Source: Tubulanus polymorphus (lineage: Eukaryota > Animalia > Nemertea). From it: a DNA stretch of 64,000 bases. Under the pieces are notes generated by a model. That model had not been told where the DNA came from. It worked only from the letters and a program-made list of their open reading frames with translations, and searched no databases. A program made the translations under genes and the position numbers. How positions within the stretch are numbered: position 1 is the first letter of the stretch; each line of letters opens with the position of its first letter. This document shows, one piece after another, positions 15,001 to 64,000 of this stretch. The stretch is from assembly GCF_964204645.1 (NCBI RefSeq), contig NC_134032.1:5196275-5260274 (forward strand), in the 5' to 3' direction.

Positions 15001-15039
15001 AAAATGACGATGTCGATGCGTAAGAGCGCTCAAATAGTC

Positions 15040-41800: not shown

Positions 41801-41930
41801 TTTTCCCCCTATCGGAAAAAATGACGATGTCGATGCGTAAAAGGGCTCAAATCGTCTGGAAAAGCACATTTCGACCCGAAAACGTCGTTCAGAGCGAGAA
41901 AAGACGTTTTCTTATCAAATTGTCCCCCTA
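26900..41930. repeat. Non-adjacent duplicated block of ~24 monomers (~26900-29780 and ~39050-41930), offset ~12154 bp = 103 monomers
   Basis: Identical artefact ORFs at 27074/39228, 27874/40028 and 29525/41678 (offset 12153-12154), with the same order of variant monomers. Confidence 0.8.
36620..39470. repeat. Higher-order tandem duplication of 12 monomers (period ~1424 bp)
   Basis: Private variant ATCGTATGG at ~36765 and ~38189; ORF pairs 36769/38193 and 36946/38370. Confidence 0.85.
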
Positions 41931-44159
41931 TCGGAAAAATGAAGATGTCGATGCGTAAAAGCGCTCAAATCGTCAGGAAAAGCACATTTCGACCAGAAAA
42001 CGTCGTTCCGAGCGAGAAAAGACGTTTTCTTATCAAATTTCCCCCCTATCGAAAAAATGACGATGTCGATGCGTAAAAGCGCTCAAATCATCAGGAATAA
42101 CAAATTTCGACCAGAAAACGTCGTTCAGAGCGAGAAAAGACGTTTTCTTATCAAATTGTCCCCTATCGGAAAAATGACGATGGCGATGCGTAAAAGCGCT
42201 CAAATCGTCAGGAAAAGCACATTTCGACCCGAAAACGTCGTTCAGAGCGAGAAAAGACGTTTTCTTATCAAATTGTCCCCCTATCGGAAAAATGACGATG
42301 GCGATGCGTAAAAGCGCTCAAATCGTCAGGAAAAGCACATTTCGACCCGAAAACGTCGTACAGAGCGAGAAAAGACGTTTTCTTATCAAATTGTCCCCCT
42401 ATCGGAAAAATGACGATGGCGATGCGTAAAAGCGCTCAAATCGTCAGGAAAAGCACATTTCGACCCGAAAACGTCGTTCAGAGAGAGAAAAGACGTTTTC
42501 TTATCAAATTGTCCCCCTATCGGAAAAATGACGATGGCGAAGCGTAAAAGCGCTCAAATCGTCAGGAAAAGCACATTTCGACCCGAAAACGTCGTTCCGC
42601 GCGAGAAAAGACGTTTCTTATCAAATTTCCCCCCTATCGAAAAAATGACGATGTCGATGCGTAAGAGCGCTCAAAAGTCAGGAAAAGCACATTTCGACCC
42701 GAAAACGTCGTTCAGCGCGAGAAAAGACGTTTTCTTATCAAATTTCCCCCCTATCGGAAAAATGACGATGTCGATGCGTAAAAGCGCTCAAATCGTCAGG
42801 AAAAACACATTTCGACCGGAAAACGTCGTTCAGTGCGAGAAAAGACGTTTTCTTATCAAATTTCCCTCCTCTCGAAAAAATGACGATGTCGATGCGTAAA
42901 AGAGATCAAATCGTCAGGAAAAGCACATTTCGACCCGAAAACGTCGTTCAGAGCGAGAAAAGACGTTTTCTTACCAAATTGTCCCTCTATCGGAAAAATG
43001 ACGATGTCGATGCGTAAGAGCGCTCAAATAGTCTGGAAAAGCACATTTCGACCCGAAAACGTCGTTCAGAGCGAGAAAAGACGTTTTCTTATCAAATTTT
43101 CCCCCTATCGGAAAAACGACGATGTCGACGCGTGAAAGCGCTCAAATCGTCAGGAAAAGCACCTTTCGACCCGAAAACGTCGTTCAGAGCGAGAAAAGAC
43201 GTTTTCTTATCAAATTTTCCCCCTATCGGAAAAAACGACGATGTCGATGCGTAAAAGGGCTCAAATCGTCTGGAAAAGCACATTTCGACCCGAAAACGTC
43301 GTTCAGAGCGAGAAAAGACGTTTTCTTATCAAATTGTCCCCCTATCGGAAAAATGAAGATGTCGATGCGTAAAAGCGCTCAAATCGTCAGGAAAAGCACA
43401 TTTCGACCAGAAAACGTCGTTCCGAGCGAGAAAAGACGTTTTCTTATCAAATTTTCCCCCTATCGGAAAAATGACGATGTCGATGCGTAAAAGCGCTCAA
43501 ATCATCAGGAATAACAAATTTCGACCAGAAAACGTCGTTCAGAGCGAGAAAAGACGTTTTCTTATCAAATTTCCCCCTATCGAAAAAATGATGATGTCGG
43601 TGCGTAAAAGCGCTCAAATCGTCAGGAAAAACACATTTCGACCGGAAAACGTCGTTCAGTGCGAGAAAAGACGTTTTCTTATCAAATTTCCCCCCTATCG
43701 AAAAAATGACGATGTCGATGCGTAAAAGAGCTCAAATCGTCAGGAAAAGCACATTTCGACCCGAAAACGTCGTTCAGAGCGAGAAAAGACGTTTTCTTAT
43801 CAAATTGTCCCCCTATCCGAAAAATGACGATGGCGATGCGTAAAAGCGCTCAAATCGTCAGGAAAAGCACATTTCGACCCGAAAACGTCGTTCAGAGCGA
43901 GAAAAGACGTTTTCTTATCAAATTGTCCCCCTATCGGAAAAATGACGATGGCGATGCGTAAAAGCGCTCAAATCGTCAGGAAAAGCACATTTCGACCCGA
44001 AAACGTCGTACAGAGCGAGAAAAGACGTTTTCTTATCAAATTGTCCCCCTATTGGAAAAATGACGATGGCGATGCGTAAAAGCGCTCAAATCGTCAGGAA
44101 AAGCACATTTCGACCCGAAAACGTCGTTCAGAGCGAGAAAAGACGTTTTCTTATCAAAT

Positions 44160-47100
44160 TGTCCCCCTATCGGAAAAATGACGATGGCGAAGCGTAAAAG
44201 CGCTCAAATCGTCAGGAAAAGCACATTTCGACCCGAAAACGTCGTTCCGCGCGAGAAAAGACGTTTTCTTATCAAATTGTCCCCCTATCAGAAAAATGAC
44301 GATGGCGATGCGTAAAAGCGCTCAAATCGTCAGGAAAAGCACTTATCGACCCGAAAACGTCATTCCGCGCGAGAAAAGACGTTTTCTTATCAAATTTCCC
44401 CCCTATCGAAAAAATGACGATGTCGATGCGTAAGAACGCTCAAAAGTCAGGAAAAGCACATTTCGACCCGAAAACGTCGTTCAGCGCGAGAAAAGACGTT
44501 TTCTTATCAAATTTTCCCCTATCAGAAAAATGACGATGTCGATGCGTAAAAGCGCTCAAATAGTCAGGAAAAGCACATTTCGACCCGAAAACGTCGTTCA
44601 GAGCGAGAAAAGACGTTTTCTTATCAAATTTTCCCCCTATCGGAAAAATGACGATGTCGATGCGTAAAAGCACTCAAATAGTCAGGAAAAGCACATTTCG
44701 ACCAGAAAACTACGTTCAGAGCGAGAAAAGACGTTTTCTTATCAAATTGTCCCCCTATCGGAAAAATGACGATGGCGATGCGTAAAAGCGCTCAAATCGT
44801 CAGGAAAAGCACATTTCGACCCGAAAACGTCGTTCAGAGCGAGAAAAGACGTTTTCTTATCAAATTGTCCCCCTATCGGAAAAATGACGATGGCGATGCG
44901 TAAAAGCGCTCAAATCGTCAGGAAAAGCACTTATCGACCCGAAAACGTCATTCCGCGCGAGAAAAGACGTTTTCTTATCAAATTTCCCCCCTATCGAAAA
45001 AATGACGATGTCGATGCGTAAGAGCGCTCAAATAGTCAGGAAAAGCACATTTCGACCAGAAAACGTCGTTCAGAGCGAGAAAAGACGTTTTCTTATCAAA
45101 TTGTCCCCCTATCGGAAAAATGACGATGGCGATGCGTAAAAGCGCTCAAATCGTCAGGAAAAGCACATTTCGACCCGAAAACGTCGTTCAGAGCGAGAAA
45201 AGACGTTTTCTTATCAAATTGTCCCCCTATCGGAAAAATGACGATGGCGATGCGTAAAAGCGCTCAAATCGTCAGGAAAAGCACATTTCGACCAGAAAAC
45301 GTCGTTCAGAGCGAGAAAAGACGTTTTCTTATCAAATTTCCCCCCTATCGGAAAAATGACGATGGCGATGCGTAAAAGCGCATAAATCGTCAGGAAAAGC
45401 ACATTTCGACCAGAAAACGTCGTTCAGAGCGAGAAAAGACGTTTTCTTATCAAATTGTCCCCCTATCGGAAGAATGACGATGGCGATGCGTAAAAGCGCT
45501 CAAATCGTCAGGAAAAGCACTTTTCGACCCGAAAACGTCGTTCCGCGCGAGAAAAGACGTTTTCTTATCAAATTTCCCCCCTATCGAAAAAATGACGTTG
45601 TCGATGCGTAAAAGTCCTCAAATCGTCAGGAAAAGCACATTTCGACCAGAAAACGTCGTTCAGAGCGAGAAAAGACTTTTTCTTATCAAATTTCCCCCCT
45701 ATCGAAAAAATGACGATGTCGATGCGTAAAAGCGCTCAAATCGTCAGGAAAAGCAGATTTCGACCCGAAAACGTCGTTCCGCGCGGGAAAAGACGTTTTC
45801 TTATAAAATTTCCCCCCTATCGGAAAAATGACGATTTCAATGCGTAAGAGCGCTCAAAAGTCAGGAAAAGCACATTTCGACCCGAAAACGTCGTTCAGCG
45901 CGAGAAAAGACGTTTTCTTATCAAATTTCCCCCCTATCGGAAAAATGACGATGTCGATGCGTAAAAGCGCTCAAATAGTCAGGAAAAGCACATTTCGACC
46001 CGAAAACGTCGTTCAGTGCGAGAAAAGACGTTTTCTTATCAAATTTCCCCCCTATCGAAAGAATGACGATGTCGATGCGTAAAAGAGCTCAAATCGTCAG
46101 GAAAAGCACATTTCGACCCGAAAACGTCGTTCAGAGCGAGAAAAGACGTTTTCTTATCAAATTGTCCCCCTATCGGAAAAATGACGATGGCGATGCGTAA
46201 AAGTCCTCAAATCGTCAGGAAAAGCACATTTCGACCAGAAAACGTCGTTCAGAGCGAGAAAAGACTTTTTCTTATCAAATTTCCCCCCTATCGAAAAAAT
46301 GACGATGTCGATGCGTAAAAGCGCTCAAATCGTCAGGAAAAGCAGATTTCGACCCGAAAACGTCGTTCCGCGCGGGAAAAGACGTTTTCTTATAAAATTT
46401 CCCGCCTATCGGAAAAATGACGATTTCAATGCGTAAGAGCGCTCAAAAGTCAGGAAAAGCACATTTCGACCCGAAAACGTCGTTCAGCGCGAGAAAAGAC
46501 GTTTTCTTATCAAATTTCCCCCCTATCGGAAAAATGACGATGTCGATGCGTAAAAGCGCTCAAATAGTCAGGAAAAGAACATTTCGACCCGAAAACGTCG
46601 TTCAGAGCGAGAAAAGACGTTTTCTTATCAAATTTTCCCCCTATCGGAAAAATGACGATGTCGATGCGTAAAAGCGCTGAAATAGTCAGGAAAAGCACAT
46701 TTCGACCCGAAAACGTCGTTCAGTGCGAGAAAAGACGTTTTCTTATCAAATTGTCCCCCTATCGGAAAAATGACGATGGCGATGCGTAAAAGCGCTCAAA
46801 TCGTCAGGAAAAGCACTTATCGACCCGAAAACGTCATTCCGCGCGAGAAAAGACGTTTTCTTATCAAATTTCCCCCTATCGAAAAAATGACGATGTCGAT
46901 GCGTAAGAGCGCTCAAATAGTCAGGAAAAGCACATTTCGACCAGAAAACGTCGTTCAGAGCGAGAAAAGACGTTTTCTTATCAAATTGTCCCCTATCGGA
47001 AAAATGACGATGGCGATGCGTAAAAGCGCTCAAATCGTCAGGAAAAGCACATTTCGACCCGAAAACGTCGTTCAGAGCGAGAAAAGACGTTTTCTTATCA

Positions 47101-50100
47101 AATTGTCCCCCTATCGGAAAAATGACGATGGCGATGCGTAAAAGCGCTCAAATCGTCAGGAAAAGCACATTTCGACCAGAAAACGTCGTTCAGAGCGAGA
47201 AAAGACGTTTTCTTATCAAATTTCCCCCCTATCGGAAAAATGACGATGGCGATGCGTAAAAGCGCATAAATCGTCAGGAAAAGCACATTTCGACCAGAAA
47301 ACGTCGTTCAGAGCGAGAAAAGACGTTTTCTTATCAAATTGTCCCCCTATCGGAAGAATGACGATGGCGATGCGTAAAAGCGCTCAAATCGTCAGGAAAA
47401 GCACTTTTCGACCCGAAAACGTCGTTCCGCGCGAGAAAAGACGTTTTCTTATCAAATTTCCCCCCTATCGAAAAAATGACGTTGTCGATGCGTAAAAGTC
47501 CTCAAATCGTCAGGAAAAGCACATTTCGACCAGAAAACGTCGTTCAGAGCGAGAAAAGACTTTTTCTTATCAAATTTCCCCCCTATCGAAAAAATGACGA
47601 TGTCGATGCGTAAAAGCGCTCAAATCGTCAGGAAAAGCAGATTTCGACCCGAAAACGTCGTTCCGCGCGGAAAAGACGTTTTCTTATCAAATTGTCCCCC
47701 TATCGGAAAAATGACGATTTCAATGCGTAAGAGCGCTCAAAAGTCAGGAAAAGCACATTTCGACCCGAAAACGTCGTTCAGCGCGAGAAAAGACGTTTTC
47801 TTATCAAATTTCCCCCCTATCGGAAAAATGACGATGTCGATGCGTAAAAGCGCTCAAATAGTCAGGAAAAGCACATTTCGACCCGAAAACGTCGTTCAGT
47901 GCGAGAAAAGACGTTTTCTTATCAAATTTCCCCCCTATCGAAAAAATGACGATGTCGATGCGTAAAAGAGCTCAAATCGTCAGGAAAAGCACATTTCGAC
48001 CCGAAAACGTCGTTCAGAGCGAGAAAAGACGTTTTCTTATCAAATTGTCCCCCTATCGGAAAAATGACGATGGCGATGCGTAATAGTCCTCAAATCGTCA
48101 GGAAAAGCACATTTCGACCAGAAAACGTCGTTCAGAGCGAGAAAAGACTTTTTCTTATCAAATTTCCCCCCTATCGAAAAAATGACGATGTCGATGCGTA
48201 AAAGCGCTCAAATCGTCAGGAAAAGCAGATTTCGACCCGAAAACGTCGTTCCGCGCGGGAAAAGACGTTTTTCTTATAAAATTTCCCGCCTATCGGAAAA
48301 TGACGATTTCAATGCGTAAGAGCGCTCAAAAGTCAGGAAAAGCACATTTCGACCCGAAAACGTCGTTCAGCGCGAGAAAAGACGTTTTCTTATCAAATTT
48401 CCCCCCTATCGGAAAAATGACGATGTCGATGCGTAAAAGCGCTCAAATAGTCAGGAAAAGAACATTTCGACCCGAAAACGTCGTTCAGAGCGAGAAAAGA
48501 CGTTTTCTTATCAAATTTTCCCCCTATCGGAAAAATGACGATGTCGATGCGTAAAAGCGCTGAAATAGTCAGGAAAAGCACATTTCGACCCGAAAACGTC
48601 GTTCAGTGCGAGAAAAGACGTTTTCTTATCAAATTGTCCCCCTATCGGAAAAATGACGATGTCGATGCGTAAAAGCGCTCAAATCGTCAGGAAAAGCACA
48701 TTTCGACCAGAAAACGTCGTTCAGAGCGAGAAAAGACGTTTTCTTATCAAATTTCCCCCTATCGAAAAAATGACGATGTCCATGCGTAAAAGCGCTCAAA
48801 TCGTCAGGAAAAGCACATTTCGACCCGAAAACGTCGTTCCGCGCGAGAAAAGACGTTTTCTTATCAAATTGTCCCCCTATCGGAAAAATGACGATGGCGA
48901 AGCGTAAAAGCGCTCAAATCGTCAGGAAAAGCACATTTCGACCCGAAAACGTCGTTCCGCGCGAGAAAAGACGTTTTCTTATCAAATTGTCCCCCTATCA
49001 GAAAAATGACGATGGCGATGCGTAAAAGCGCTCAAATCGTCAGGAAAAGCACTTATCGACCCGAAAACGTCATTCCGCGCGAGAAAAGACGTTTTCTTAT
49101 CAAATTTCCCCCCTATCGAAAAAATGACGATGTCGATGCGTAAGAACGCTCAAAAGTCAGGAAAAGCACATTTCGACCCGAAAACGTCGTTCAGCGCGAG
49201 AAAAGACGTTTTCTTATCAAATTTTCCCCTATCAGAAAAATGACGATGTCGATGCGTAAAAGCGCTCAAATAGTCAGGAAAAGCACATTTCGACCCGAAA
49301 ACGTCGTTCAGAGCGAGAAAAGACGTTTTCTTATCAAATTTTCCCCCTATCGGAAAAATGACGATGTCGATGCGTAAAAGCACTCAAATAGTCAGGAAAA
49401 GCACATTTCGACCAGAAAACTACGTTCAGAGCGAGAAAAGACGTTATCTTATCAAATTGTCCCCCTATCGGAAAAATGACGATGGCGATGCGTAAAAGCG
49501 CTCAAATCGTCAGGAAAAGCACATTTCGACCCGAAAACGTCGTTCAGAGCGAGAAAAGACGTTTTCTTATCAAATTGTCCCCCTATCGGAAAAATGACGA
49601 TGGCGATGCGTAAAAGCGCTCAAATCGTCAGGAAAAGCACTTATCGACCCGAAAACGTCATTCCGCGCGAGAAAAGACGTTTTCTTATCAAATTTCCCCC
49701 CTATCGAAAAAATGACGATGTCGATGCGTAAGAGCGCTCAAATAGTCAGGAAAAGCACATTTCGACCAGAAAACGTCGTTCAGAGCGAGAAAAGACGTTT
49801 TCTTATCAAATTGTCCCCCTATCGGAAAAATGACGATGGCGATGCGTAAAAGCGCTCAAATCGTCAGGAAAAGCACATTTCGACCCGAAAACGTCGTTCA
49901 GAGCGAGAAAAGACGTTTTCTTATCAAATTGTCCCCCTATCGGAAAAATGACGATGGCGATGCGTAAAAGCGCTCAAATCGTCAGGAAAAGCACATTTCG
50001 ACCAGAAAACGTCGTTCAGAGCGAGAAAAGACGTTTTCTTATCAAATTTCCCCCCTATCGGAAAAATGACGATGGCGATGCGTAAAAGCGCATAAATCGT

Positions 50101-53100
50101 CAGGAAAAGCACATTTCGACCAGAAAACGTCGTTCAGAGCGAGAAAAGACGTTTTCTTATCAAATTGTCCCCCTATCGGAAGAATGACGATGGCGATGCG
50201 TAAAAGCGCTCAAATCGTCAGGAAAAGCACTTTTCGACCCGAAAACGTCGTTCCGCGCGAGAAAAGACGTTTTCTTATCAAATTTCCCCCCTATCGAAAA
50301 AATGACGTTGTCGATGCGTAAAAGTCCTCAAATCGTCAGGAAAAGCACATTTCGACCAGAAAACGTCGTTCAGAGCGAGAAAAGACTTTTTCTTATCAAA
50401 TTTCCCCCCTATCGAAAAAATGACGATGTCGATGCGTAAAAGCGCTCAAATCGTCAGGAAAAGCAGATTTCGACCCGAAAACGTCGTTCCGCGCGGGAAA
50501 AGACGTTTTCTTATAAAATTTCCACCCTATCGGAAAAATGACGATTTCAATGCGTAAGAGCGCTCAAAAGTCAGGAAAAGCACATTTCGACCCGAAAACG
50601 TCGTTCAGCGCGAGAAAAGACGTTTTCTTATCAAATTTCCCCCCTATCGGAAAAATGACGATGTCGATGCGTAAAAGCGCTCAAATAGTCAGGAAAAGCA
50701 CATTTCGACCCGAAAACGTCGTTCAGTGCGAGAAAAGACGTTTTCTTATCAAATTTCCCCCCTATCGAAAGAATGACGATGTCGATGCGTAAAAGAGCTC
50801 AAATCGTCAGGAAAAGCACATTTCGACCCGAAAACGTCGTTCAGAGCGAGAAAAGACGTTTTCTTATCAAATTGTCCCCCTATCGGAAAAATGACGATGG
50901 CGATGCGTAAAAGTCCTCAAATCGTCAGGAAAAGCACATTTCGACCAGAAAACGTCGTTCAGAGCGAGAAAAGACTTTTTCTTATCAAATTTCCCCCCTA
51001 TCGAAAAAATGACGATGTCGATGCGTAAAAGCGCTCAAATCGTCAGGAAAAGCAGATTTCGACCCGAAAACGTCGTTCCGCGCGGGAAAAGACGTTTTCT
51101 TATAAAATTTCCCGCCTATCGGAAAAATGACGATTTCAATGCGTAAGAGCGCTCAAAAGTCAGGAAAAGCACATTTCGACCCGAAAACGTCGTTCAGCGC
51201 GAGAAAAGACGTTTTCTTATCAAATTTCCCCCCTATCGGAAAAATGACGATGTCGATGCGTAAAAGCGCTCAAATAGTCAGGAAAAGAACATTTCGACCC
51301 GAAAACGTCGTTCAGAGCGAGAAAAGACGTTTTCTTATCAAATTTTCCCCCTATCGGAAAAATGACGATGTCGATGCGTAAAAGCGCTGAAATAGTCAGG
51401 AAAAGCACATTTCGACCCGAAAACGTCGTTCAGTGCGAGAAAAGACGTTTTCTTATCAAATTGTCCCCCTATCGGAAAAATGACGATGGCGATGCGTAAA
51501 AGCGCTCAAATCGTCAGGAAAAGCACTTATCGACCCGAAAACGTCATTCCGCGCGAGAAAAGACGTTTTCTTATCAAATTTCCCCCCTATCGAAAAAATG
51601 ACGATGTCGATGCGTAAGAGCGCTCAAATAGTCAGGAAAAGCACATTTCGACCAGAAAACGTCGTTCAGAGCGAGAAAAGACGTTTTCTTATCAAATTGT
51701 CCCCCTATCGGAAAAATGACGATGGCGATGCGTAAAAGCGCTCAAATCGTCAGTAAAAGCACATTTCGACCCGAAAACGTCGTTCAGAGCGAGAAAAGAC
51801 GTTTTCTTATCAAATTGTCCCCCTATCGGAAAAATGACGATGGCGATGCGTAAAAGCGCTCAAATCGTCAGGAAAAGCACATTTCGACCAGAAAACGTCG
51901 TTCAGAGCGAGAAAAGACGTTTTCTTATCAAATTTCCCCCCTATCGGAAAAATGACGATGGCGATGCGTAAAAGCGCATAAATCGTCAGGAAAAGCACAT
52001 TTCGACCAGAAAACGTCGTTCAGAGCGAGAAAAGACGTTTTCTTATCAAATTGTCCCCCTATCGGAAGAATGACGATGGCGATGCGTAAAAGCGCTCAAA
52101 TCGTCAGGAAAAGCACTTTTCGACCCGAAAACGTCGTTCCGCGCGAGAAAAGACGTTTTCTTATCAAATTTCCCCCCTATCGAAAAAATGACGTTGTCGA
52201 TGCGTAAAATGCCTCAAATCGTCAGGAAAAGCACATTTCGACCAGAAAACGTCGTTCAGAGCGAGAAAAGACTTTTTCTTATCAAATTTCCCCCCTATCG
52301 AAAAAATGACGATGTCGATGCGTAAAAGCGCTCAAATCGTCAGGAAAAGCAGATTTCGACCCGAAAACGTCGTTCCGCGCGGGAAAAGACGTTTTCTTAT
52401 CAAATTGTCCCCCTATCGGAAAAATGACGATTTCAATGCGTAAGAGCGCTCAAAAGTCAGGAAAAGCACATTTCGACCCGAAAACGTCGTTCAGCGCGAG
52501 AAAAGACGTTTTCTTATCAAATTTCCCCCCTATCGGAAAAATGACGATGTCGATGCGTAAAAGCGCTCAAATAGTCAGGAAAAGCACATTTCGACCCGAA
52601 AACGTCGTTCAGTGCGAGAAAAGACGTTTTCTTATCAAATTTCCCCCCTATCGAAAAATGACGATGTCGATGCGTAAAAGAGCTCAAATCGTCAGGAAAA
52701 GCACATTTCGACCCGAAAACGTCGTTCAGAGCGAGAAAAGACGTTTTCTTATCAAATTGTCCCCCTATCGGAAAAATGACGATGGCGATGCGTAAAAGTC
52801 CTCAAATCGTCAGGAAAAGCACATTTCGACCAGAAAACGTCGTTCAGAGCGAGAAAAGACTTTTTCTTATCAAATTTCCCCCCTATCGAAAAAATGACGA
52901 TGTCGATGCGTAAAAGCGCTCAAATCGTCAGGAAAAGCAGATTTCGACCCGAAAACGTCGTTCCGCGCGGGAAAAGACGTTTTCTTATAAAATTTCCCGC
53001 CTATCGGAAAAATGACGATTTCAATGCGTAAGAGCGCTCAAAAGTCAGGAAAAGCACATTTCGACCCGAAAACGTCGTTCAGCGCGAGAAAAGACGTTTT

Positions 53101-53520
53101 CTTATCAAATTCCCCCCTATCGGAAAAATGACGATGTCGATGCGTAAAAGCGCTCAAATAGTCAGGAAAAGAACATTTCGACCCGAAAACGTCGTTCAGA
53201 GCGAGAAAAGACGTTTTCTTATCAAATTTTCCCCCTATCGGAAAAATGACGATGTCGATGCGTAAAAGCGCTGAAATAGTCAGGAAAAGCACATTTCGAC
53301 CCGAAAACGTCGTTCAGTGCGAGAAAAGACGTTTTCTTATCAAATTGTCCCCCTATCGGAAAAATGACGATGTCGATGCGTAAAAGCGCTCAAATCGTCA
53401 GGAAAAGCACATTTCGACCAGAAAACGTCGTTCAGAGCGAGAAAAGACGTTTTCTTATCAAATTTCCCCCCTATCGAAAAAATGACGATGTCCATGCGTA
53501 AAAGCGCTCAAATCGTCAGG
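44160..53520. repeat. Higher-order tandem duplication of 40 monomers (period ~4710 bp) with nested 16-mer and 5-mer units
   Basis: Private variants TAAGAACGCT (44431/49141) and GAAAACTACGTTC (~44705/~49415). ORF pairs 44440/49150, 45214/49924, 45828/50538, 46417/51127. Internal offsets are 1883-1884 (45214/47098, 46417/48300) and 589 (45828/46417). Confidence 0.9.
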
Positions 53521-53759
53521 AAAAGCAGATTTCGACCCGAAAACGTCGTTCCGCGCGGGAAAAGACGTTTTCTTATAAAATTTCCCCCCTATCGGAAAAA
53601 TGACGATTTCGATGCGTAAGAGCGCTCAAAAGTCAGGAAAAGCACATTTCGACCCGAAAACGTCGTTCAGCGCGAGAAAAGACGTTTTCTTATCAAATTT
53701 CCCCCCTATCGGAAAAATGACGATGTCGATGCGTAAAAGAGCTCAAATAGTCAGGAAAA

Positions 53760-55970
53760 GCACATTTCGACCCGAAAACGTCGTTTAGCGCGAGAAAAGA
53801 CGTTTTCTTATCAAATTGTCCCCCTATCGGAAAAATGACGATGTCGATGCGTAAAAGCGCTCAAATCGTCAGGAAAAGCACATTTCGACCCGAAAACGTC
53901 GATCAGAGCGAGAAAAGGCGTTTTCTTATCAAATTGTCCCCCTATCGGAAAAACGACGATGTCGAGGCGTAAAAGCGCTCAAATCGTCTGGAAAAGTACA
54001 TTTCGACCCGAAATCGTCGATCAGAGCGAGAAGAGACGGTTTCTTATCAAATTGTCCCCCTATCGGAAAAACGACGATGTCGACGCGTGAAAGCGCTCAA
54101 ATCGTCAGGAAAAGCACATTTCGACCAGAAAACGTCGTTCAGAGCGAGAAAAGACGTTTTCTTATCAAATTTTCCCCCTATCGGAAAAATGACGATGTCG
54201 ATGCGTAAAAGCGCTCAAATCGTCAGGAAAAGCACATTTCGACCCGACAACGTCGTTCAGAGCGAGAAAAGACGTTTTCTTATCAAATTTCCCCCCTATC
54301 GAAAAAATGACGATGTCGATGCGTAAAAGCGCTCAAATCGTCAGGAAAAGCACATTTCGACCCGAAAACGTCGTTCCGCGCGAGAAAAGACGTTTTCTTA
54401 TCAAATTCCCCCCCCCCCTATCGGAAAATGACGATGTCGATGCGTAAGGGCGCTCAAATAGTCAGGAAAAGCACATTTCAACCCGAAAACGTCGTTCCGC
54501 GCGAGAAAAGACGTTTACTTATCAAATTGTCCCCCTATCGAAAAAATGACGATGTCGATGCGTAAAAGCGCTCAAATCGTCAGGAAAAGCACATTTCGAC
54601 CCGAAAACGTCGTTCAGAGCGAGAAAAGACGTTTTCTTATCAAATTTCCCCCCTTTCGAAAAAATGACGATGTCGATGCGTAAAAGCGCTCAAAAGTCAG
54701 GAAAAGCACATTTCGACCCGAAAACGTCGTTCAGCGCGAGAAAAGACGTTTTCTTATCAAATTTCCCCCCTATCGGAAAAATGACGATGTCGATGCGTAA
54801 AAGCGCTCAAATAGTCAGGAAAAGCACATTTCGCCCCGAAAACGTCGTTCAGTGCGAGAAAAGACGTTTTCTTATCAAATTGTCCCCCTATCGGAAAAAT
54901 GACGATGGCGATGCGTAAAAGCGCTCAAATCGTCAGGAAAAGCACATTTCGACCCGAAAACGTCGTTCAGAGCGAGAAAAGACGTTTTCTTATCAAATTG
55001 TCCCCCTATCGGAAAAATGACGATGGCGATGCGTAAAAGCGCTCAAATAGTCAGGAAAAGCACATTTCGACCCGAAAACGTCGTTTAGCGCAAGAAAAGA
55101 CGTTTTCTTATCAAATTGTCCCCCTATCGGAAAAATGACGATGTCGATGCGTAAAAGCGCTCAAATCGTCAGGAAAAGCACATTTCGACCCGAAAACGTC
55201 GATCAGAGCGAGAAAAGGCGTTTTCTTATCAAATTGTCCCCCTATCGGAAAAACGACGATGTCGAGGCGTAAAAGCGCTCAAATCGTCTGGAAAAGTACA
55301 TTTCGACCCGAAATCGTCGATCAGAGCGAGAAGAGACGGTTTCTTATCAAATTGTCCCCCTATCGGAAAAACGACGATGTCGACGCGTGAAAGCGCTCAA
55401 ATCGTCAGGAAAAGCACATTTCGACCAGAAAACGTCGTTCAGAGCGAGAAAAGACGTTTTCTTATCAAATTTTCCCCCTATCGGAAAAATGACGATGTCG
55501 ATGCGTAAAAGCGCTCAAATCGTCAGGAAAAGCACATTTCGACCCGACAACGTCGTTCAGAGCGAGAAAAGACGTTTTCTTATCAAATTTCCCCCCTATC
55601 GAAAAAATGACGATGTCGATGCGTAAAAGCGCTCAAATCGTCAGGAAAAGCACATTTCGACCCGAAAACGTCGTTCCGCGCGAGAAAAGACGTTTTCTTA
55701 TCAAATTCCCCCCCCCCCCCCCCCCTATCGGAAAAATGACGATGTCGATGCGTAAGGGCGCTCAAATAGTCAGGAAAAGCACATTTCAACCCGAAAACGT
55801 CGTTCCGCGCGAGAAAAGACGTTTTCTTATCAAATTGTCCCCCTATCGAAAAAATGACGATGTCGATGCGTAAAAGCGCTCAAATCGTCAGGAAAAGCAC
55901 AATTCGACCCGAAAACGTCGTTCAGAGCGAGAAAAGACGTTTTCTTATCAAATTTCCCCCCTTTCGAAAA
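53760..55970. repeat. Higher-order duplication of ~11 monomers (period ~1300 bp)
   Basis: Variants AGAGACGGTTTC (~54032/~55332) and GACCCGACAA (54241/55541); ORF pair 54087/55387. Confidence 0.8.
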
Positions 55971-58900
55971 AATGACGATGTCGATGCGTAAAAGCGCTCA
56001 AATAGTCAGGAAAAGCACATTTCGACCCGAAAACGTCGTTCAGTGCGAGAAAAGACGTTTTCTTATCAAATTTCCCCCCTATCGAAAAATGACGATGTCG
56101 ATGCGTAAAAGAGCTCAAATCGTCAGGAAAAGCACATTTCGACCCGAAAACGTCGTTCAGAGCGAGAAAAGACGTTTTCTTATCAAATTGTCCCCATATC
56201 GGAAAAATGACGATGGCGATGCGTAAAAGCGCTCAAATCGTCAGGAAAAGCACATTTCGACCCGAAAACGTCGTTCAGAGCGAGAAAAGACGTTTTCTTA
56301 TCAAATTGTCCCCCTATCGGAAAAATGACGATGGCGATGCGTAAAAGCGCTCAAATCGTCAGGAAAAGCACATTTCGACCCGAAAACGTCGTACAGAGCG
56401 AGAAAAGACGTTTTCTTATCAAATTGTCCCCCTATTGGAAAAATGACGATGGCGATGCGTAAAAGCGCTCAAATCGTCAGGAAAAGCACATTTCGACCCG
56501 AAAACGTCGTTCAGAGCGAGAAAAGACGTTTTCTTATCAAATTGTCCCCCTATCGGAAAAATGACGATGGCGAAGCGTAAAAGCGCTCAAATCGTCAGGA
56601 AAAGCACATTTCGACCCGAAAACGTCGTTCAAAGCGAGAAAAGACGTTTTCTTATCAAATTGTCCCCCTATCAGAAAAATGACGATGGCGATGCGTAAAA
56701 GCGCTCAAATCGTCAGGAAAAGCACTTATCGACCCGAAAACGTCATTCCGCGCGAGAAAAGACGTTTTCTTATCAAATTTCCCCCCTATCGAAAAAATGA
56801 CGATGTCGATGCGTAAGAGCGCTCAAAAGTCAGGAAAAGCACATTTCGACCCGAAACGTCGTTCAGCGCGAGAAAAGACGTTTTCTTATCAAATTTTCCC
56901 CTATCAGAAAAATGACGATGTCGATGCGTAAAAGCGCTCAAATAGTCAGGAAAAGCACATTTCGACCCGAAAACGTCGTTCAGAGCGAGAAAAGACGTTT
57001 TCTTATCAAATTTTCCCCCTATCGGAAAAAATGACGATGTCGATGCGTAAAAGCACTCAAATAGTCAGGAAAAAGCACATTTCGACCAGAAAACGTCGTT
57101 CAGAGCGAGAAAAGACGTTTTCTTATCAAATTGTCCCCCTATCGGAAAAATGACGATGGCGATGCGTAAAAGCGCTCAAATCGTCAGGAAAAGCACATTT
57201 CGACCCGAAAACGTCGTTCAGAGCGAGAAAAGACGTTTTCTTATCAAATTGTCCCCCTATCGGAAAATGACGATGGCGATGCGTAAAAGCGCTCAAATCG
57301 TCAGGAAAAGCACTTATCGACCCGAAAACGTCATTCCGCGCGAGAAAAGACGTTTTCTTATCAAATTTCCCCCCTATCGGAAAAATGACGATGGCGATGC
57401 GTAAAAGCGCATAAATCGTCAGGAAAAGCACATTTCGACCAGAAAACGTCGTTCAGAGCGAGAAAAGACGTTTTCTTATCAAATTGTCCTCCTATCGGAA
57501 GAATGACGATGGCGATGCGTAAAAGCGCTCAAATCGTCAGGAAAAGCACTTTTCGACCCGAAAACGTCGTTCCGCGCGAGAAAAGACGTTTTCTTATCAA
57601 ATTTCCCCCCTATCGAAAAAATGACGATGTCGATGCGTAAAAGCGCTCAAATCGTCAGGAAAAGCACATTTCGACCCGAAAACGTCGTTCAGAGCGAGAA
57701 AAGACGTTTTCTTATCAAATTCCCCCCCCCCCCCTATCGGAAAAATGACGATGTCGATGCGTAAGAGCGCTCAAATAGTCAGGAAAAGCACATTTCGACC
57801 CGAAAACGTCGTTCAGAGCGAGAAAAGACGTTTTCTTAACAAATTGTCCCCCTATCGGAAAAATGACGTTGTCGATGCGTAAAAGTCCTCAAATCGTCAG
57901 GAAAAGCACATTTCGACCAGAAAACGTCGTTCAGAGCGAGAAAAGACTTTTTCTTATCAAATTTCCCCCTATCGAAAAAATGACGATGTCGATGCGTAAA
58001 AGCGCTCAATCGTCAGGAAAAGCAGATTTCGACCCGAAAACGTCGTTCCGCGCGGGAAAAGATGTTTTCTTATAAAAATTTCCCCCCTATCGGAAAAATG
58101 ACGATTTCAATGCGTAAGAGCGCTCAAAAGTCAGGAAAAGCACATTTCGACCCGAAAACGTCGTTCAGCGCGAGAAAAGACGTTTTCTTATCAAATTTCC
58201 CCCCTATCGGAAAAATGAAGATGTCGATGCGTAAAAGCGCTCAAATAGTCAGGAAAAGAACATTTCGACCCGAAAACGTCGTTCAGAGCGAGAAAAGACG
58301 TTTTCTTATCAAATTTTCCCCCTATCGGAAAAATGACGATGTCGATGCGTAAAAGCGCTGAAATAGTCAGGAAAAGCACATTTCGACCCGAAAACGTCGT
58401 TCAGTGCGAGAAAAGACGTTTTCTTATCAAATTGTCCCCCTATCGGAAAATGACGATGTCGATGCGTAAAAGCGCTCAAATCGTCAGGAAAAGCACATTT
58501 CGACCAGAAAACGTCGTTCAGAGCGAGAAAAGACGTTTTCTTATCAAATTTCCCCCTATCGAAAAATGACGATGTCCATGCGTAAAAGCGCTCAAATCGT
58601 CAGGAAAAGCACATTTCGACCCGAATACGTCGTTCCGCGCGAGAAAAGACGTTTTCTTATCAAATTCCCCCCCCCCCCCTATCGGAAAAATGACGATGTC
58701 GATGCGTAAGAGCGCTCAAATAGTCAGGAAAAGCACATTTCGACCCGAAAACGTCGTTCAGAGCGAGAAAAGACGTTTCTTATCAAATTGTCCCCCTATC
58801 GGAAAAATGACGTTGTCGATGCGTAAAAGCCCTCAAATCGTCAGGAAAAGCCCATTTCGACCAGAAAACGTCGTTCAGAGCGAGAAAAGACTTTTTCTTA

Positions 58901-60515
58901 TCAAATTTCCCCCCTATCGAAAAAATGACGATGTCGATGCGTAAAAGCGCTCAAATCGTCAGGAAAAGCAGATTTCGACCCGAAAACGTCGTTCCGCGCG
59001 GGAAAAGACGTTTTCTTATAAAATTTCCCCCCTATCGGAAAAATGACGATTTCGATGCGTAAGAGCGCTCAAAAGTCAGGAAAAGCACATTTCGACCCGA
59101 AAACGTCGTTCAGCGCGAGAAAAGACGTTTTCTTATCAAATTTCCCCCCTATCGGAAAAATGACGATGTCGATGCGTAAAAGAGCTCAAATAGTCAGGAA
59201 AAGCACATTTCGACCCGAAAACGTCGTTTAGCGCGAGAAAAGACGTTTTCTTATCAAATTGTCCCCCTATCGGAAAAACGACGATGTCGAGGCGTAAAAG
59301 CGCTCAAATCGTCTGGAAAAGTACATTTCGACCCGAAATCGTCGATCAGAGCGAGAAGAGACGGTTTCTTATCAAATTGTCCCCCTATCGGAAAAACGAC
59401 GATGTCGACGCGTGAAAGCGCTCAAATCGTCAGGAAAAGCACATTTCGACCAGAAAACGTCGTTCAGAGCGAGAAAAGACGTTTTCTTATCAAATTCCCC
59501 CCCCCCCCCTATCGGAAAAATGACGATGTCGATGCGTAAGAGCGCTCAAATAGTCAGGAAAAGCACATTTCGACCCGAAAACGTCGTTCAGAGCGAGAAA
59601 AGACGTTTTCTTATCAAATTGTCCCCCTATCGGAAAAATGACGTTGTCGATGCGTAAAAGCCATAAAATCGTCAGGAAAAGCACATTTCGACCAGAAAAC
59701 GTCGTTCAGAGCGAGAAAAGACTTTTTCTTATCAAATTTCCCCCCTATCGAAAAAATGACGATGTCGATGCGAAAAAGCGCTCAAATCGTCAGGAAAAGC
59801 ACATTTCGACCCGAAAACGTCGTTCCGCGCGGGAAAAGACGTTTTCTTATAAAATTTCCCCCCTATCGGAAAAATGACGATTTCGATGCGTAAGAGCGCT
59901 CAAAAGTCAGGAAAAGCACATTTCGACCCGAAAACGTCGTTCAGCGCGAGAAAAGACGTTTTCTTATCAAATTTCCCCCCTATCGGAAAAATGACGATGT
60001 CGATGCGTAAAAGCGCTCAAATCGCAGGAATAACAAATTTCGACCAGAAAACGTCGTTCAGAGCGAGAAAAGACGTTTTCTTATCAAATTTCCCCCTATC
60101 GAAAAAATGACGATGTCGATGCGTAAAAGCCCTCAAATCGTCAGGAAAAGCACATTTCGACCCGAAAACGTCGTTCAGAGCGAGAAAAGACGTTTTCTTA
60201 TCAAATTGTCCCCCTATCGGAAAAATGACGATGTCGATGCGTAAAACCGCTCAAATCATCAGGAATAACAAATTTCGACCAGAAAACGTCGTTCAGAGCG
60301 AGAAAAGACGTTTTCTTATCAAATTGTCCCCCTATCGGAAAAATGACGATGTCGATGCGTAAAACCGCTCAAATCATCAGGAATAACACATTTCGACCCG
60401 AAAACGTCGTTCAGCGCGGGAAAAGACGTTTTCTCGTAAAATTTTCAGAGCGAGAAATCAATACTTTTTCATTCCTCAATACTTTTGATAAGTCATTTCG
60501 GATTCTACATCAGTT

Positions 60516-60717: not shown

Positions 60718-60774
60718 CTAACTAAAGATTTACACAAGCTTGAATACATATACAAGGGTGTTCAGTCGTTTCGA

Positions 60775-61053: not shown

Positions 61054-61300
61054 TTTATTAATCTAAAAGATATTAGTGGTAACTCTGGCTATCTAAAGGA
61101 TATACTAAATATAAATTGATAAATACACATTTAAAGATTTCATAATTAGTAGCCCCAATAACAACAAAAATGTACTTACATTTAACTCGCGAACTGTTAA
61201 TTCCGAATTATATCACGAAATGGGATAGATATTATAACTGTATATGTATGTTTGAGCAGTCTCTGGTTCAGTGTTGTTAATACGTCCTGTGTATGTACTA

Positions 61301-61309
61301 GCGCATGCG
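61301..61309. promoter_or_regulatory. NRF1/Ewg-like motif GCGCATGCG upstream of the minus-strand ORF
   Basis: Matches the core of the NRF1 palindrome (TGCGCATGCGCA). Related copies occur at 60528-60537 (TGCGCATGCG) and ~60643-60652 (TGCGCCTGCG). Function not demonstrated. Confidence 0.3.
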
Positions 61310-61590
61310 AAACTGCCAGTTATAACGAAGTAAGTGGGCGACAGGTGTTTTAGATATCAACGGGTAGTATGATACAATCCTTATCTCACTACTTTGTCTA
61401 TCTACGCGGTTTTAGTTTATGTCATGCTTTTTGAGATTTATCTATATTAATTTTACATGTTGGACGGTAGTACTTCTTATTTGCTTCCATTTTAATATCA
61501 AATTCTTTATTGAAATTGATTTCAGAAGTTATTCATATATAAAATATTTATTTATATATGTTATTCATTTATATGAACATTATTAGAGCA

Positions 61591-61721
61591 ATTGTATATA
61601 TCTTGTTTCAAGTCAAAGGTTGAGGGGTCGGGTGAGTAGAAAATAAAATCGAGCGTGCGAGAATTTATTTTTCTACTCACTCGACCTCTCGACCTTTGGC
61701 TTGAAACAAGATATACACAAT
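61591..61721. repeat. Long fold-back inverted repeat (60/61-bp arms, 10-nt loop); MITE-like element or hairpin-RNA locus
   Basis: 61591-61650 aligns to the reverse complement of 61661-61721, with 5 transitions in the outer 53 bp plus one indel and one mismatch near the loop GAGCGTGCGA. It can be read as TG...CA (61593-61719) flanked by AT on both sides. Confidence 0.9.
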
Positions 61722-61727
61722 AACTAA

Positions 61728-62323
61728 CCTGGTATAACTGATGAACAACCACCTGATTTTACTGATGCAAGGTTTAGTAATGATAATGAAACAGCATATA
61801 ATTCTAATTTAGCAGGTACTGGTTCTACTAATACTCCTACTACTAATAATCCAGAGGGAGTTGATAGAATAGATAAATCGAGAATCGATCCTAAAAATGA
61901 TAATCTAGATTTTGTAAAACAAGATTTAGAGTACAATGTATTTATTCGTCATTTTAAACCTATATTAGAAAAATCTGGTTGTAATATAAATGATATAGGT
62001 GCGCAATTTTTAGTCCCAAAATTGAAATTTTGAGTGAATATTGAATAGTGAATATTGTTATCATTTGAAAGATGATTATTATATTAATATCTCTTATAAA
62101 AATAAAAATAAAATATAAGCAGAATCAAATTTAATTTAATTTTAATTTAGAACCATCTAGAATTAAAAGAATTTTAGATGATGATGTTATAAGCGATGTT
62201 ACAAAACAAGAAGTAGATCAACATTAAAGAGTATTTAAACAAAGAATTAAAGTATTACTTCAAATAATTAATGAAAATTTAGAAACAGAAACAACTTCAA
62301 AACAGAATACAACTTCTTCATAA
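61728..62323 (+). pseudogene. Decayed hypothetical viral ORF (N/T/D-rich region followed by an acidic helical segment)
   Basis: A Met-less open frame of ~100 codons runs 61728-62033 (PGITDEQPPDFTDARFSNDNETAYNSNLAG...LEYNVFIRHFKPILEKSG...PKLKF*) with strong A/T third-position bias. A later segment reads DDDVISDVTKQEVDQH*RVFKQRIKVLLQIINENLETETTSKQNTTSS*. Confidence 0.5.
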
Positions 62324-62489
62324 TAAACCTGAATCAAATAAATTTCCTGTTGAAAAACTTTTTCCAAGTGGATTACTTGATGCACCCGGTCAAGAAATAT
62401 ATTCTTCTAAACATATAATATTATTTGTAATTACAATTGTAAGTGCAATTATTTTTGGATTAGTAAATATGATGAAAATAGATAAGTAA
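62283..62489 (+). pseudogene. C-terminal remnant of a protein ending in a transmembrane helix, immediately upstream of the capsid gene
   Basis: Open frame ...KPESNKFPVEKLFPSGLLDAPGQEIYSSKHIILFVITIVSAIIFGLVNMMKIDK*, with stop at 62487-62489, 15 nt before the next ATG. IILFVITIVSAIIFGLV is a clear hydrophobic segment. Confidence 0.55.
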
Positions 62490-62504
62490 TTTTTTTCTAA
62501 ATAA

Positions 62505-63594
62505 ATGAGTGGAAGTTATATAAATCTTTCTAAGAATTCTAGATTATCTAATGCAGTTAAAGCAGAAAGATCTCATCACATTATTACTCATAATCATTCT
62601 TTTATTAATCCAAATGAAATTTATATGTTAGAATTCTGTCATTAACACAAAATACTTTTTATGTACCTAATTCAATATATTTATTAGGTAATATAGAAGT
62701 AACTGGTCATGATAATAATTATGTTAGATGGTATATATCAAATAAAAAGTTAACCATAATGTTGGATCAGAAACTGTTTTAACATTAGATAATTATAATT
62801 TATTTGCACATTAAAAAGATTTGTGGTTAACTAAAGAGAATAGAAAAAAAATATATTTCAAGGTATTCAAACAGAAAATCAAGATAAACTAAGATCAAAA
62901 GCTAATAATGCAATAATGCACTAATAATGGGACTAATTCTGCAGATAATTTAATCAAAAATATTACTGGAAGTAAATATTAAATTCCATTAGATTTTGAA
63001 TTGATAAATGATAATTTTCCTTTATATAAATATGCAATTCACGGTGATATTATATTTGAAAAAACTTTTGCTCTTGTTAATGAAATAGTAATATCTTGAA
63101 ATAGTAATTAAAGATATGAGTCATAAATTATCAAATATATGTTTAGAATATGACACAGTAACTGATGAAAATATTGCGAGTACAATTCAAACTCAGTATA
63201 ATCAAGGATTATCATTATTATATGATTATATAGATAAATTTGAAACTGTACAGTGCAAGTAATGTAATAATTAATAAAAATAGTAACTTTCCTAGAAGAT
63301 AAATTGAAGGAGTATTAATATTTTTTACCACAATATATTCTAATGGCTCAATAAATGTTGATAAATATTATAATCCTGAAATATCAAAAGTAGAAATAAC
63401 AATTGAAGGTATAGCATATAAAATATTTAGCCAAGGAATGAGAATGATACATCAATGGGTAGAAATTGTAAAACATTTCATGAATGAAAAAATAAAATCA
63501 TCTGAAGATTGTAATATCAATCAAATTGATTATTATTCTGGCAACTGAAGATAACTAATTACATGGCTCTGGGATAAAATTACAAAATACAAAA
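62505..63594 (+). pseudogene. Major capsid protein-like (putative double jelly-roll) pseudogene of invertebrate Polinton-like viruses
   Basis: Manual stitching across several frameshifts and stops gives MSGSYINLSKNSRLSNAVKAERSHHIITHNHSFINPNE / LYVRILSLTQNTFYVPNSIYL...KKLTI / VGSETVLTLDNYNLFAH*KDLWLTKENR / IFQGIQTENQDKLRS / GSKY*IPLDFELI..FPLY..DIIFEKTF / LSNICLEYDTVTD..QYNQGLSLLYD / NFPRR*IEGVLIFF..KYYNPEISKVEITIEG..IFSQGMR..QW.EI.KHF / TEDN*LHGSGIKLQNTK. These blocks (THNPS, DLW..QGI, IPLDFE, I.LEY, YNP.I.KV...EG...QGM, LHG.G) are colinear with a capsid-like family I recall from cnidarian/mollusc endogenous elements. The C-terminus is truncated. Confidence 0.75.
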
Positions 63595-63735
63595 TATCAT
63601 GGCAAAGATTTAATTGCGATAAAAGAAAATTAAGTATAATGGTTTAAAATTATGGTTACAAGAACAACCCACATATCAGTTACATAAAAAGATTTTAAAA
63701 AAACTTTACAACTTGAAATGTTGATGGACATATAA
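63595..63735 (+). pseudogene. N-terminal fragment of a Polinton/Maverick-type retroviral-like (rve) integrase
   Basis: 63632-63706 translates KYNGLKLWLQEQPTYQLHKKILKKL, matching the Maverick integrase pattern vk.WL..Q..Y.LHk..rk.F. A shifted frame (63706-63735) gives LQLEMLMDI*, resembling the Q.DL.Dm motif around the first catalytic Asp after an internal deletion. Confidence 0.65.
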
Positions 63736-64000
63736 AGACCAAAAATTGCTAGCAGATTTGGTGAATAAAACGTGGTGACGATATCTACAATGTCGAGAAT
63801 TACCCGCTTACAATAAAAATCCTGGCTATTAGAAAATCCATATTCAAAATGACCGTACGACCAACGCTATTGAAACTATATAAAATGTCTATAAACCTAT
63901 ACAAATCAAATAGAAACCCGTTACTAAAAAAGAATGTTAAAATGCGGGTGGAGGCCAGTTTCGCCTCGTCAGTCCAGCACGTTAAGCGTTACCGGGTCTG

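What the first reader, a model, noticed from the sequence alone, without database searches (positions are those of the whole stretch)
62283..63735. Hidden fossil of a Polinton-like dsDNA virus (TM protein, capsid, integrase) invisible to the ORF track
Seen: no ORF is called here, but short plus-strand frames join across frameshifts into a ~350-aa protein starting at ATAAATG (62505). It is preceded by an ORF ending in a TM helix and followed directly by WLQEQPTYQLHKK. Established: Polintons/Mavericks (adintoviruses) encode a double jelly-roll capsid and an rve integrase with this N-terminal motif. Inference: the capsid does not resemble the canonical Maverick hexon N-terminus (ELDLF..PPTQ) but a more divergent, poorly annotated invertebrate family. 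This may therefore be an undescribed lineage of integrating virus, with intact relatives possibly elsewhere in the host genome.
Basis: partly seen in the sequence, partly recalled or inferred. Interest (0 to 1): 0.8.

Follow-up and report, generated by a model that had tools for sequence, protein, structure and literature searches.

The report
Broken sea-anemone-type Polinton virus remnant
At the edge of a long satellite array lies a 2-kb broken remnant of a virus-like Polinton element, with pieces of a membrane-protein gene, a gene for a predicted double jelly-roll capsid and an integrase gene; its capsid likely belongs to a rarely annotated type first described in a sea anemone, so it is a dead copy of a known kind rather than a new virus lineage.

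Summary
Six collinear segments (62508-63594) match an intact 415-aa protein (E 4e-98) whose model is a double jelly-roll capsid (pLDDT 92; Z 27.7 to PBCV-1). Relatives at 73-76% DNA identity carry the same membrane-protein gene upstream, plus an rve-chromodomain integrase and an A32 ATPase. The WLQEQ piece is that integrase's N-terminus (52% identity). Corrections: the 'TM ORF' and the capsid-integrase adjacency are both products of internal deletions. The capsid lacks about 40 C-terminal residues, and the integrase core is absent. Contigs of a sequencing run reproduce the lesions they span and show many divergent copies. What may be new is the host (a ribbon worm by earlier unchecked notes) and the family's size without a Pfam model. 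Sequence look-ups in this scan's notes found nothing similar; one note reports a Polinton elsewhere in this genome.

The parts
61728..62489 (+). Remnant of the conserved membrane-protein gene that precedes the capsid gene in all close relatives; broken by stops and frameshifts and by an internal deletion of about 0.68 kb near 62400; C-terminal TM helix kept
   Evidence: Tail 62400-62477 matches the upstream ORF of L001, L003, L004, L005 at 41-54% identity, E 6e-8 to 2e-6. DNA 62210-62399 matches L001:4-198 and 62410-62478 matches L001:884-952. The match of the 5' part at 61728 is weak (E 0.1).
62505..63597 (+). Major capsid protein pseudogene (double jelly-roll predicted from an intact homolog; Polinton-3_NV type); six segments in alternating frames, 7 stops, last ~40 codons missing
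   Evidence: fold of homolog P0001; family assignment
63595..63620 (+). Deletion junction joining the capsid 3' part to the integrase 5' part (about 0.45-0.5 kb missing relative to L003, which has the same gene order)
   Evidence: spanned without a difference by a 313-nt contig of run X1
63600..63766 (+). N-terminal fragment of an rve-chromodomain integrase (contains WLQEQPTY); it stops at the start of the rve core, so the catalytic domain is absent
   Evidence: 52% identity to residues 23-82 of the L004 integrase, E 3e-13; Pfam rve starts at residue 74 of that protein; 76% DNA identity at 63596-63759
61591..61721 (.). 131-bp hairpin (59-nt arms, 88% complementary) abutting the left end of the remnant; likely a separate foldback repeat
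   Evidence: z -15.5; no match in L001-L005; variants with other loops in run X1
63757..63870 (.). Start of another repeated sequence that likely truncates the remnant on the right
   Evidence: Two X3 contigs match from 63757/63760 onward but not upstream of it (table 8)
1..60446 (.). 118-bp satellite array flanking the unique stretch (context, not part of the element)
   Evidence: no non-satellite gap over 150 bp before 60458

Best explanation
The stretch 61728-63766 is a dead, internally deleted piece of an integrating virus-like element that likely belongs to the Polinton-3_NV / Polinton-N1_NV lineage: Polintons whose predicted double jelly-roll capsid is of the PLV type rather than the Maverick type. 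How it works: the intact element would insert into host DNA with its rve-chromodomain integrase and package its linear DNA into a double jelly-roll capsid with an A32 ATPase (genes shown in relatives; activity inferred from established knowledge of Polintons). This copy likely entered the germline near a satellite array and decayed there. It lost its ends and its replication and packaging genes, and it took two large internal deletions, frameshifts and stops (shown). Neighbouring repeats likely clipped it on both sides (inferred). It makes no full-length capsid or integrase.
For: Collinear match to an intact 415-aa protein, far above shuffled controls. The model of that protein (108-sequence alignment, pLDDT 91.8, pTM 0.89) matches double jelly-roll capsids: Foldseek E 6.5e-17 to iridovirus MCP, VIA Z 27.7, rmsd 3.6, 362 aligned to PBCV-1, with the 16 top rows all viral capsid or scaffold proteins. 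Four close loci share 73-76% DNA identity over the capsid. They encode rve + chromo integrase (3 of 3 tested) and Pox_A32 ATPase (2 of 2 tested). L003 has the window's gene order on one strand. P0001 carries 5 of 5 motifs seen in both Nematostella rows of the 2015 alignment and neither canonical Maverick motif. P3_NV ends at residue 412 with a similar C-terminus. The Nematostella ATPase rows resemble the L001/L003 ATPases by eye. The lesions spanned by run contigs are reproduced with no other letters. Substitutions against relatives are commonest at third codon positions (42/34/55 against L003).
Against: The link to Polinton-3_NV rests on reading a published alignment by eye and on motifs chosen after seeing both sides; no score or tree was computed. 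Only 1 of the 5 motifs survives intact in the window's own frames, and the motifs are present in only 35-102 of 108 and 5-17 of 39 family members. No polymerase or protease motif was found on the coding strands of L001-L005, which are partial contigs of 2.9-11.5 kb; one polymerase-motif match in L004 lies opposite the integrase gene and is likely chance. A polymerase motif was seen only in L006, a 39% relative. The best structural matches are giant-virus capsids at 8-14% identity, not Polinton or PLV entries. The fold was predicted for the homolog, not for the window's broken copy. No terminal repeats or target-site duplication can be seen.
Confidence: 0.88

Rival explanations
1. The element belongs to a separate, undescribed capsid lineage that only resembles Polinton-3_NV: an AT-rich clade with a deoxynucleoside kinase and perhaps no polymerase, depending on a helper giant virus.
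For: Close relatives are 20-23% GC, and L003 carries a dNK gene (E 1.7e-31). No polymerase was seen in L001-L005. The family has no Pfam, PHROGs or PDB sequence match for P0001, and no virus or animal name appears among the cluster members read.
Against: Shared motifs along the whole length and the same protein length as P3_NV/N1_NV. The contigs are partial, so missing genes prove nothing. A more distant member lies beside a family-B polymerase motif (L006).
Confidence: 0.08
2. It is an ordinary Maverick/adintovirus (MavPol group 1 or 2) remnant.
For: The rve + chromodomain integrase and A32 ATPase are adintovirus hallmarks (PMC8502044, 10.1101/2024.03.25.586562).
Against: 0 of 108 and 0 of 39 relatives carry ELDLF or FDLTPD (these motifs stand for only one of the two Maverick groups). 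0 of 68 relatives hit PF21738. The best row named adintovirus in BFVD is rank 23 at 10% identity.
Confidence: 0.02
3. It is a fragment of an endogenous giant virus (Nucleocytoviricota), or an assembly artefact.
For: The top fold matches are iridovirus and chlorovirus capsids, and 13 of 68 relatives weakly hit Capsid_N PF16903, 2 of them above the cut-off.
Against: Identity to those capsids is 8-14%. The neighbours are an rve integrase, a short A32 ATPase and small membrane proteins. Short-read contigs reproduce the window's lesions, though that run may be the window's own sample.
Confidence: 0.02

Closest known systems
Polinton-3_NV, Polinton-N1_NV and N1A_NV of Nematostella vectensis (PMC4028283: main text parts 1-2 of 4 and supplement rows; PMC4642659: passages and supplementary alignment rows; PMC11296320: section 6)
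   Same: Capsid of about 412-415 aa with the same motif series from N- to C-terminus. Similar A32 ATPase by eye. rve integrase. These elements are listed without a protease, and none was seen in the relatives here (partial contigs).
   Different: The window copy is a dead 2-kb remnant at 24% GC in another animal (a ribbon worm by earlier notes). Its close relatives are AT-rich, and one carries a deoxynucleoside kinase. A polymerase is not shown for the close relatives.
Mavericks/Polintons groups 1 and 2 = Alpha/Beta adintoviruses (Polintoviricetes; PMC8502044, parts 1-3 of 6)
   Same: Double jelly-roll capsid fold, rve-chromodomain integrase, FtsK/A32 ATPase, decayed copies in animal germlines.
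   Different: Capsid sequence unrelated beyond the fold; no adenain protease seen in relatives (inconclusive).
PLVs of the PgVV / group X neighbourhood (Aquintoviricetes), including animal-derived members from octocorals, hydrozoans and bivalves (10.64898/2026.06.19.733378, Results read; PMC10120064, passages)
   Same: The literature places the P3_NV-type capsid next to these groups and names cnidarian and bivalve elements as the animal exceptions outside the Maverick cluster.
   Different: No direct comparison with PgVV proteins was made here; the relatives use an rve integrase.
PBCV-1 Vp54 and iridovirus major capsid proteins (PDB 8h2i, 6ncl, 8hif)
   Same: Double jelly-roll fold over the full length (Z 27.7, rmsd 3.6, 362 aligned).
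   Different: 8-14% identity; the gene neighbourhood is that of a small integrating element, not of a giant virus.

Membership tests
Polinton in the broad sense (pPolB + rve integrase + capsid module) | Double jelly-roll major capsid protein | tested here: met
   Met through the intact homolog P0001; the window's own copy is broken.
Polinton in the broad sense (pPolB + rve integrase + capsid module) | rve integrase with C-terminal chromodomain | tested here: met
   3 of 3 relatives tested hit rve above the cut-off; chromo is above the cut-off in 1 and at E<1e-3 in 2. The window holds only the N-terminal piece.
Polinton in the broad sense (pPolB + rve integrase + capsid module) | A32/FtsK packaging ATPase | tested here: met
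   Pox_A32 in 2 of 2 relatives tested; absent from the window.
Polinton in the broad sense (pPolB + rve integrase + capsid module) | Protein-primed family B polymerase | tested here: inconclusive
   Absent from the window and not seen in partial contigs L001-L005. A motif-A match lies in L006, a 39% relative; that ORF has no Pfam hit.
Polinton in the broad sense (pPolB + rve integrase + capsid module) | Single jelly-roll minor capsid (penton) | tested here: inconclusive
   Candidate L003:565-1329 gave a single-sequence model at pLDDT 39 with only weak hits, several of them to minor capsid proteins.
Polinton in the broad sense (pPolB + rve integrase + capsid module) | Terminal inverted repeats and target-site duplication | not testable with these tools
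   The remnant is clipped at both ends, no host genome is held, and the related contigs are partial.
Maverick groups 1/2 (Alpha/Beta adintoviruses) | Hexon recognisable by sequence as MavPol type | tested here: not met
   ELDLF and FDLTPD motifs in 0 of 108 and 0 of 39 (they cover one of the two groups); PF21738 in 0 of 68; best adintovirus-named structure 10% identity.
Maverick groups 1/2 (Alpha/Beta adintoviruses) | Adenain-type cysteine protease | tested here: inconclusive
   No motif match in L001-L006, but the contigs are partial and the motif is crude.
Polinton-3_NV / N1_NV lineage | PLV-type capsid of about 412 aa as in P3_NV and PN1_NV | tested here: met
   5 of 5 motifs in P0001, same length and similar C-terminus; by eye and by motif, not by score or tree.
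Polinton-3_NV / N1_NV lineage | Phylogenetic grouping with P3_NV next to PgVV / group X | not tested
   The reference sequences were seen only as paper text and were not available as stored proteins.
Nucleocytoviricota endogenous element | NCLDV-type capsid sequence and core-gene neighbourhood | tested here: not met
   Capsid_N above the cut-off in 2 of 68 and Capsid_NCLDV in 0 of 68; neighbours are rve integrase and a short ATPase.

The most novel reading that the evidence does not exclude
The Polinton-3_NV capsid type, treated in print as an exception of cnidarians and bivalves, is a third large lineage of animal polintoviruses. It has no protease, thousands of unannotated members (2,214 clusters at 90%; 1,785 representatives at 50% with E<=1e-10), and reaches ribbon worms, where it is a multi-copy family. 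Its AT-rich branch carries a deoxynucleoside kinase and may lack its own polymerase, living as a parasite of a giant virus of marine invertebrates.
Probability: 0.25. Interest if true: 0.55.

Novelty: new member of a known kind. Interest (0 to 1): 0.3.

Why it matters
The locus itself is a dead fragment and matters little. It points at a capsid family that Pfam, PHROGs and PDB sequence searches miss yet is large, and whose published exemplars are a few sea-anemone elements. If the host is a ribbon worm, this extends the animal range of Polintons with PLV-type capsids beyond the cnidarians and bivalves named in the papers read. A profile built from these natural proteins would let genome annotators recognise many 'hypothetical' invertebrate genes as viral capsids and would help place these chimeric elements between Polintoviricetes and Aquintoviricetes.

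Tried and rejected
No host genome is held, so the search for full-length copies could not be run. Pfam on 8 window fragments gave no hit above cut-off. Phage tblastn gave no match. IMG/VR pattern scans with P0001, with alignment A1 and with the penton candidate found no relative; a scan with the wider alignment A2 could not be built. The GTDB scan gave 1 locus, L006, a 39% relative in an archaeal MAG, likely a stray contig. PDB sequence search: 0. PHROGs: 0 of 10. Rfam on 60400-64000: 0. ESM Atlas listed unnamed viral clusters and a few Capsid_N / DJR clusters, with recognition below its threshold, so leads only. No RNA holder was listed. Summed read depths were not used as copy numbers. Whether the runs hold the family's ATPase, integrase core or kinase genes remains untested. 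Motif searches in the supplements of PMC8502044 (cut before its sequence files), PMC10120064 and PMC11296320 found nothing; bioRxiv supplements, including the 2026 capsid HMM set, were closed and may already cover this family. The penton candidate's model was too poor to use. A microhomology at the capsid-integrase junction was considered, but the scan only brackets the junction at 63595-63620. The idea that the 131-bp hairpin is a viral terminus was rejected: it sits where relatives have further genes upstream, and it has no match in them. Paper searches for Polinton/Maverick with Nemertea gave 0 papers; with 'ribbon worm' 1 paper, whose ribbon-worm passage concerns herpesvirus-like regions.

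Full report
Setting. The window is a 118-bp satellite from its start to 60446, followed by 3.5 kb of other sequence. The stretch 61722-63760 is 24% GC against 44% for the satellite. No whole genome is held. Earlier, unchecked notes of this scan call the host a ribbon worm; I did not test this.

Observation. The longest stop-free frame inside the finding is 81 codons. That fragment (63303-63545) found one longer protein, P0001 (415 aa, 60% identity, E 1.6e-23). P0001 matches the window in six collinear segments at 62508-63594, in alternating frames, 47-88% identical, combined E 4e-98, covering residues 3-375; the matched frames hold 7 stops. Against 200 resampled copies of the region, the best segments score 122, 57.8 and 40.8 bits for capsid, integrase and membrane-protein tail, against null maxima of 25.8, 24.6 and 27.3. 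Substitutions against three relatives are commonest at third codon positions (42/34/55, 40/33/58 and 50/38/65 over 211 codons), as expected of a once-coding sequence. Contigs of run X1 match 61786-62087, 62696-63010 and 63507-63819 with no difference. The lesions inside those spans are therefore real DNA, though X1 may be the window's own sample. In the same run up to 28 contigs differ from the window at single capsid positions, and one keeps a segment that the window lacks, so divergent copies exist; depths were not read as copy numbers.

What the protein is. P0001 has 2,214 relatives among 4,516 candidates at 90% clustering and 1,785 representatives at E<=1e-10 in the 50% library. Of 68 relatives, 13 hit Capsid_N weakly (2 above the cut-off) and none hit PF21738. 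A model from a 108-sequence alignment (pLDDT 91.8, pTM 0.89) matches double jelly-roll capsids over its whole length: Foldseek E 6.5e-17 to the Singapore grouper iridovirus capsid, and VIA Z 27.7, rmsd 3.6, 362 aligned to PBCV-1, with the top 16 rows all viral capsid or scaffold proteins. In BFVD the best rows are 10-14% identical and the best adintovirus-named row is rank 23 at 10%. The fold is that of the homolog; the window's copy was not folded.

Neighbourhood. Five metagenome loci were fetched (5 of 205 pattern matches confirmed). Four share 73-76% DNA identity with the window over the capsid. In L001, L003, L004 and L005 the gene upstream is a protein of 448-485 aa where complete, with C-terminal hydrophobic helices, and its tail matches the window's TM ORF. 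The relatives encode an rve integrase with a chromodomain (3 of 3 tested) and a Pox_A32 ATPase (2 of 2 tested); L003 also has a deoxynucleoside kinase. The WLQEQ piece matches residues 23-82 of the L004 integrase (52%, E 3e-13) and ends where the rve core begins (residue 74). L003 has membrane protein, capsid, integrase and ATPase on one strand; L001, L002 and L004 have integrase and ATPase on the other. No polymerase or protease motif was found on coding strands of these partial contigs; a polymerase motif A lies in L006, a 39% relative that also has an ATPase-like ORF. A penton candidate in L003 stayed unresolved.

Anatomy of the remnant. DNA at 62210-62399 matches L001:4-198 and 62410-62478 matches L001:884-952, so about 0.68 kb of the membrane-protein gene is missing and the 68-codon TM ORF is a fusion. 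Capsid similarity ends near 63595-63600 and integrase similarity begins near 63600-63620; against L003 about 0.45-0.5 kb is missing, including the capsid's last ~40 codons. On the left the remnant abuts a 131-bp hairpin (z -15.5) that has no match in the relatives. On the right, another repeat appears to begin at about 63760. No terminal repeats bracket the remnant.

Comparison with what is known. But the family is in print. The supplementary alignment of PMC4642659 shows the capsids of Polinton-3_NV and Polinton-N1_NV. They share with P0001 five motifs spread from the N- to the C-terminal third (P.E.LY..[IV]P.L, N[VL]GR.L, IPLD, N.P.RS..G, ALW.D[LF]R; 5 of 5 in P0001, 35-102 of 108 in the family, 1 of 5 intact in the window). 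P3_NV ends at residue 412 with a similar C-terminus, and these 14-17 kb elements are listed with capsid and ATPase but no protease (PMC4028283 supplement). Their ATPase rows resemble those of L001 and L003 by eye. This match was read by eye with motifs chosen after seeing both sides; no score or tree was computed. PMC4028283 and PMC4642659 describe these anemone Polintons as carrying a PLV-type capsid with Polinton polymerase and integrase. PMC10120064 names cnidarian capsids as the only metazoan ones outside the Maverick cluster. PMC11296320 places P3_NV and N1A_NV next to PgVV. The preprint 10.64898/2026.06.19.733378 adds octocoral, hydrozoan and bivalve ATPases, and 10.1101/2025.04.19.649669 assigns 40.8% of bivalve viral regions to PLVs. 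Searches for Polinton with Nemertea or ribbon worm gave 0 and 1 papers, the latter on herpesvirus-like regions. Papers were seen as follows: PMC4028283 parts 1-2 of 4 plus supplement rows; PMC4642659 passages plus parts of supplement 3; PMC8502044 parts 1-3 of 6 (supplement cut before its sequence files); PMC11296320 passages and section 6; PMC10120064 passages; PMC11131425 abstract and section 6; 2026.06.19.733378 Results; 2026.10.13.758929 parts 1-3 of 5; 2024.03.25.586562, 2023.08.22.554363 and 2025.04.19.649669 passages. Closed bioRxiv supplements, above all the 2026 capsid HMM set, may already cover this family in more hosts.

Mechanism and verdict. Shown: a broken three-gene remnant with two large deletions, whose intact relatives encode a predicted double jelly-roll capsid, integrase and packaging ATPase. 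Inferred: the parent integrated by its rve integrase, could package its DNA, entered the germline, and decayed beside the satellite, clipped by other repeats. Open: polymerase, penton, terminal repeats, and whether intact copies persist in the host. It works like a Polinton, fails the Maverick-hexon test, and most likely belongs to the Polinton-3_NV lineage. New member of a known kind; interest 0.3.

Noticed in passing
window 1-60446: Uninterrupted array of a 118-bp satellite (about 91% matches between units in the part scanned), with long internal duplications visible as repeated ORF translations (e.g. 53839-54326 and 55139-55626).
   Followed up: partly
window 60516-60717: Two 87-nt copies (91% identical, 115 bp apart) directly after the satellite; contigs of run X1 skip one unit, so the copy number may vary.
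   Followed up: no
window 60775-61062 (- strand): A 95-codon acidic open frame without a Pfam hit, preceded on its strand by a pyrimidine-rich AG; many contigs of all three runs lie on 60760-61170, so it is likely part of another repeat family.
   Followed up: partly
window 61591-61721: Strong DNA hairpin (z -15.5) with loop variants in run X1; likely a small foldback element.
   Followed up: partly
L003:7141-8469: The integrase of this relative has an N-terminal extension and is interrupted by one in-frame stop, so this copy may also be decaying or mis-assembled.
   Followed up: no
L003:10340-10981 (- strand): Deoxynucleoside kinase gene (PF01712, E 1.7e-31) in a Polinton-type element; not mentioned for adintoviruses in the passages read.
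   Followed up: no
L003:9082-9359; L004:3183-3255; L001:3787-3822: Intergenic palindromes next to the 3' end of the ATPase gene in three relatives.
   Followed up: no
P0042 cluster; L006: Capsid relatives are filed under Bartonella sp. proteins and in an archaeal MAG, likely stray eukaryotic or viral DNA in prokaryote assemblies.
   Followed up: no
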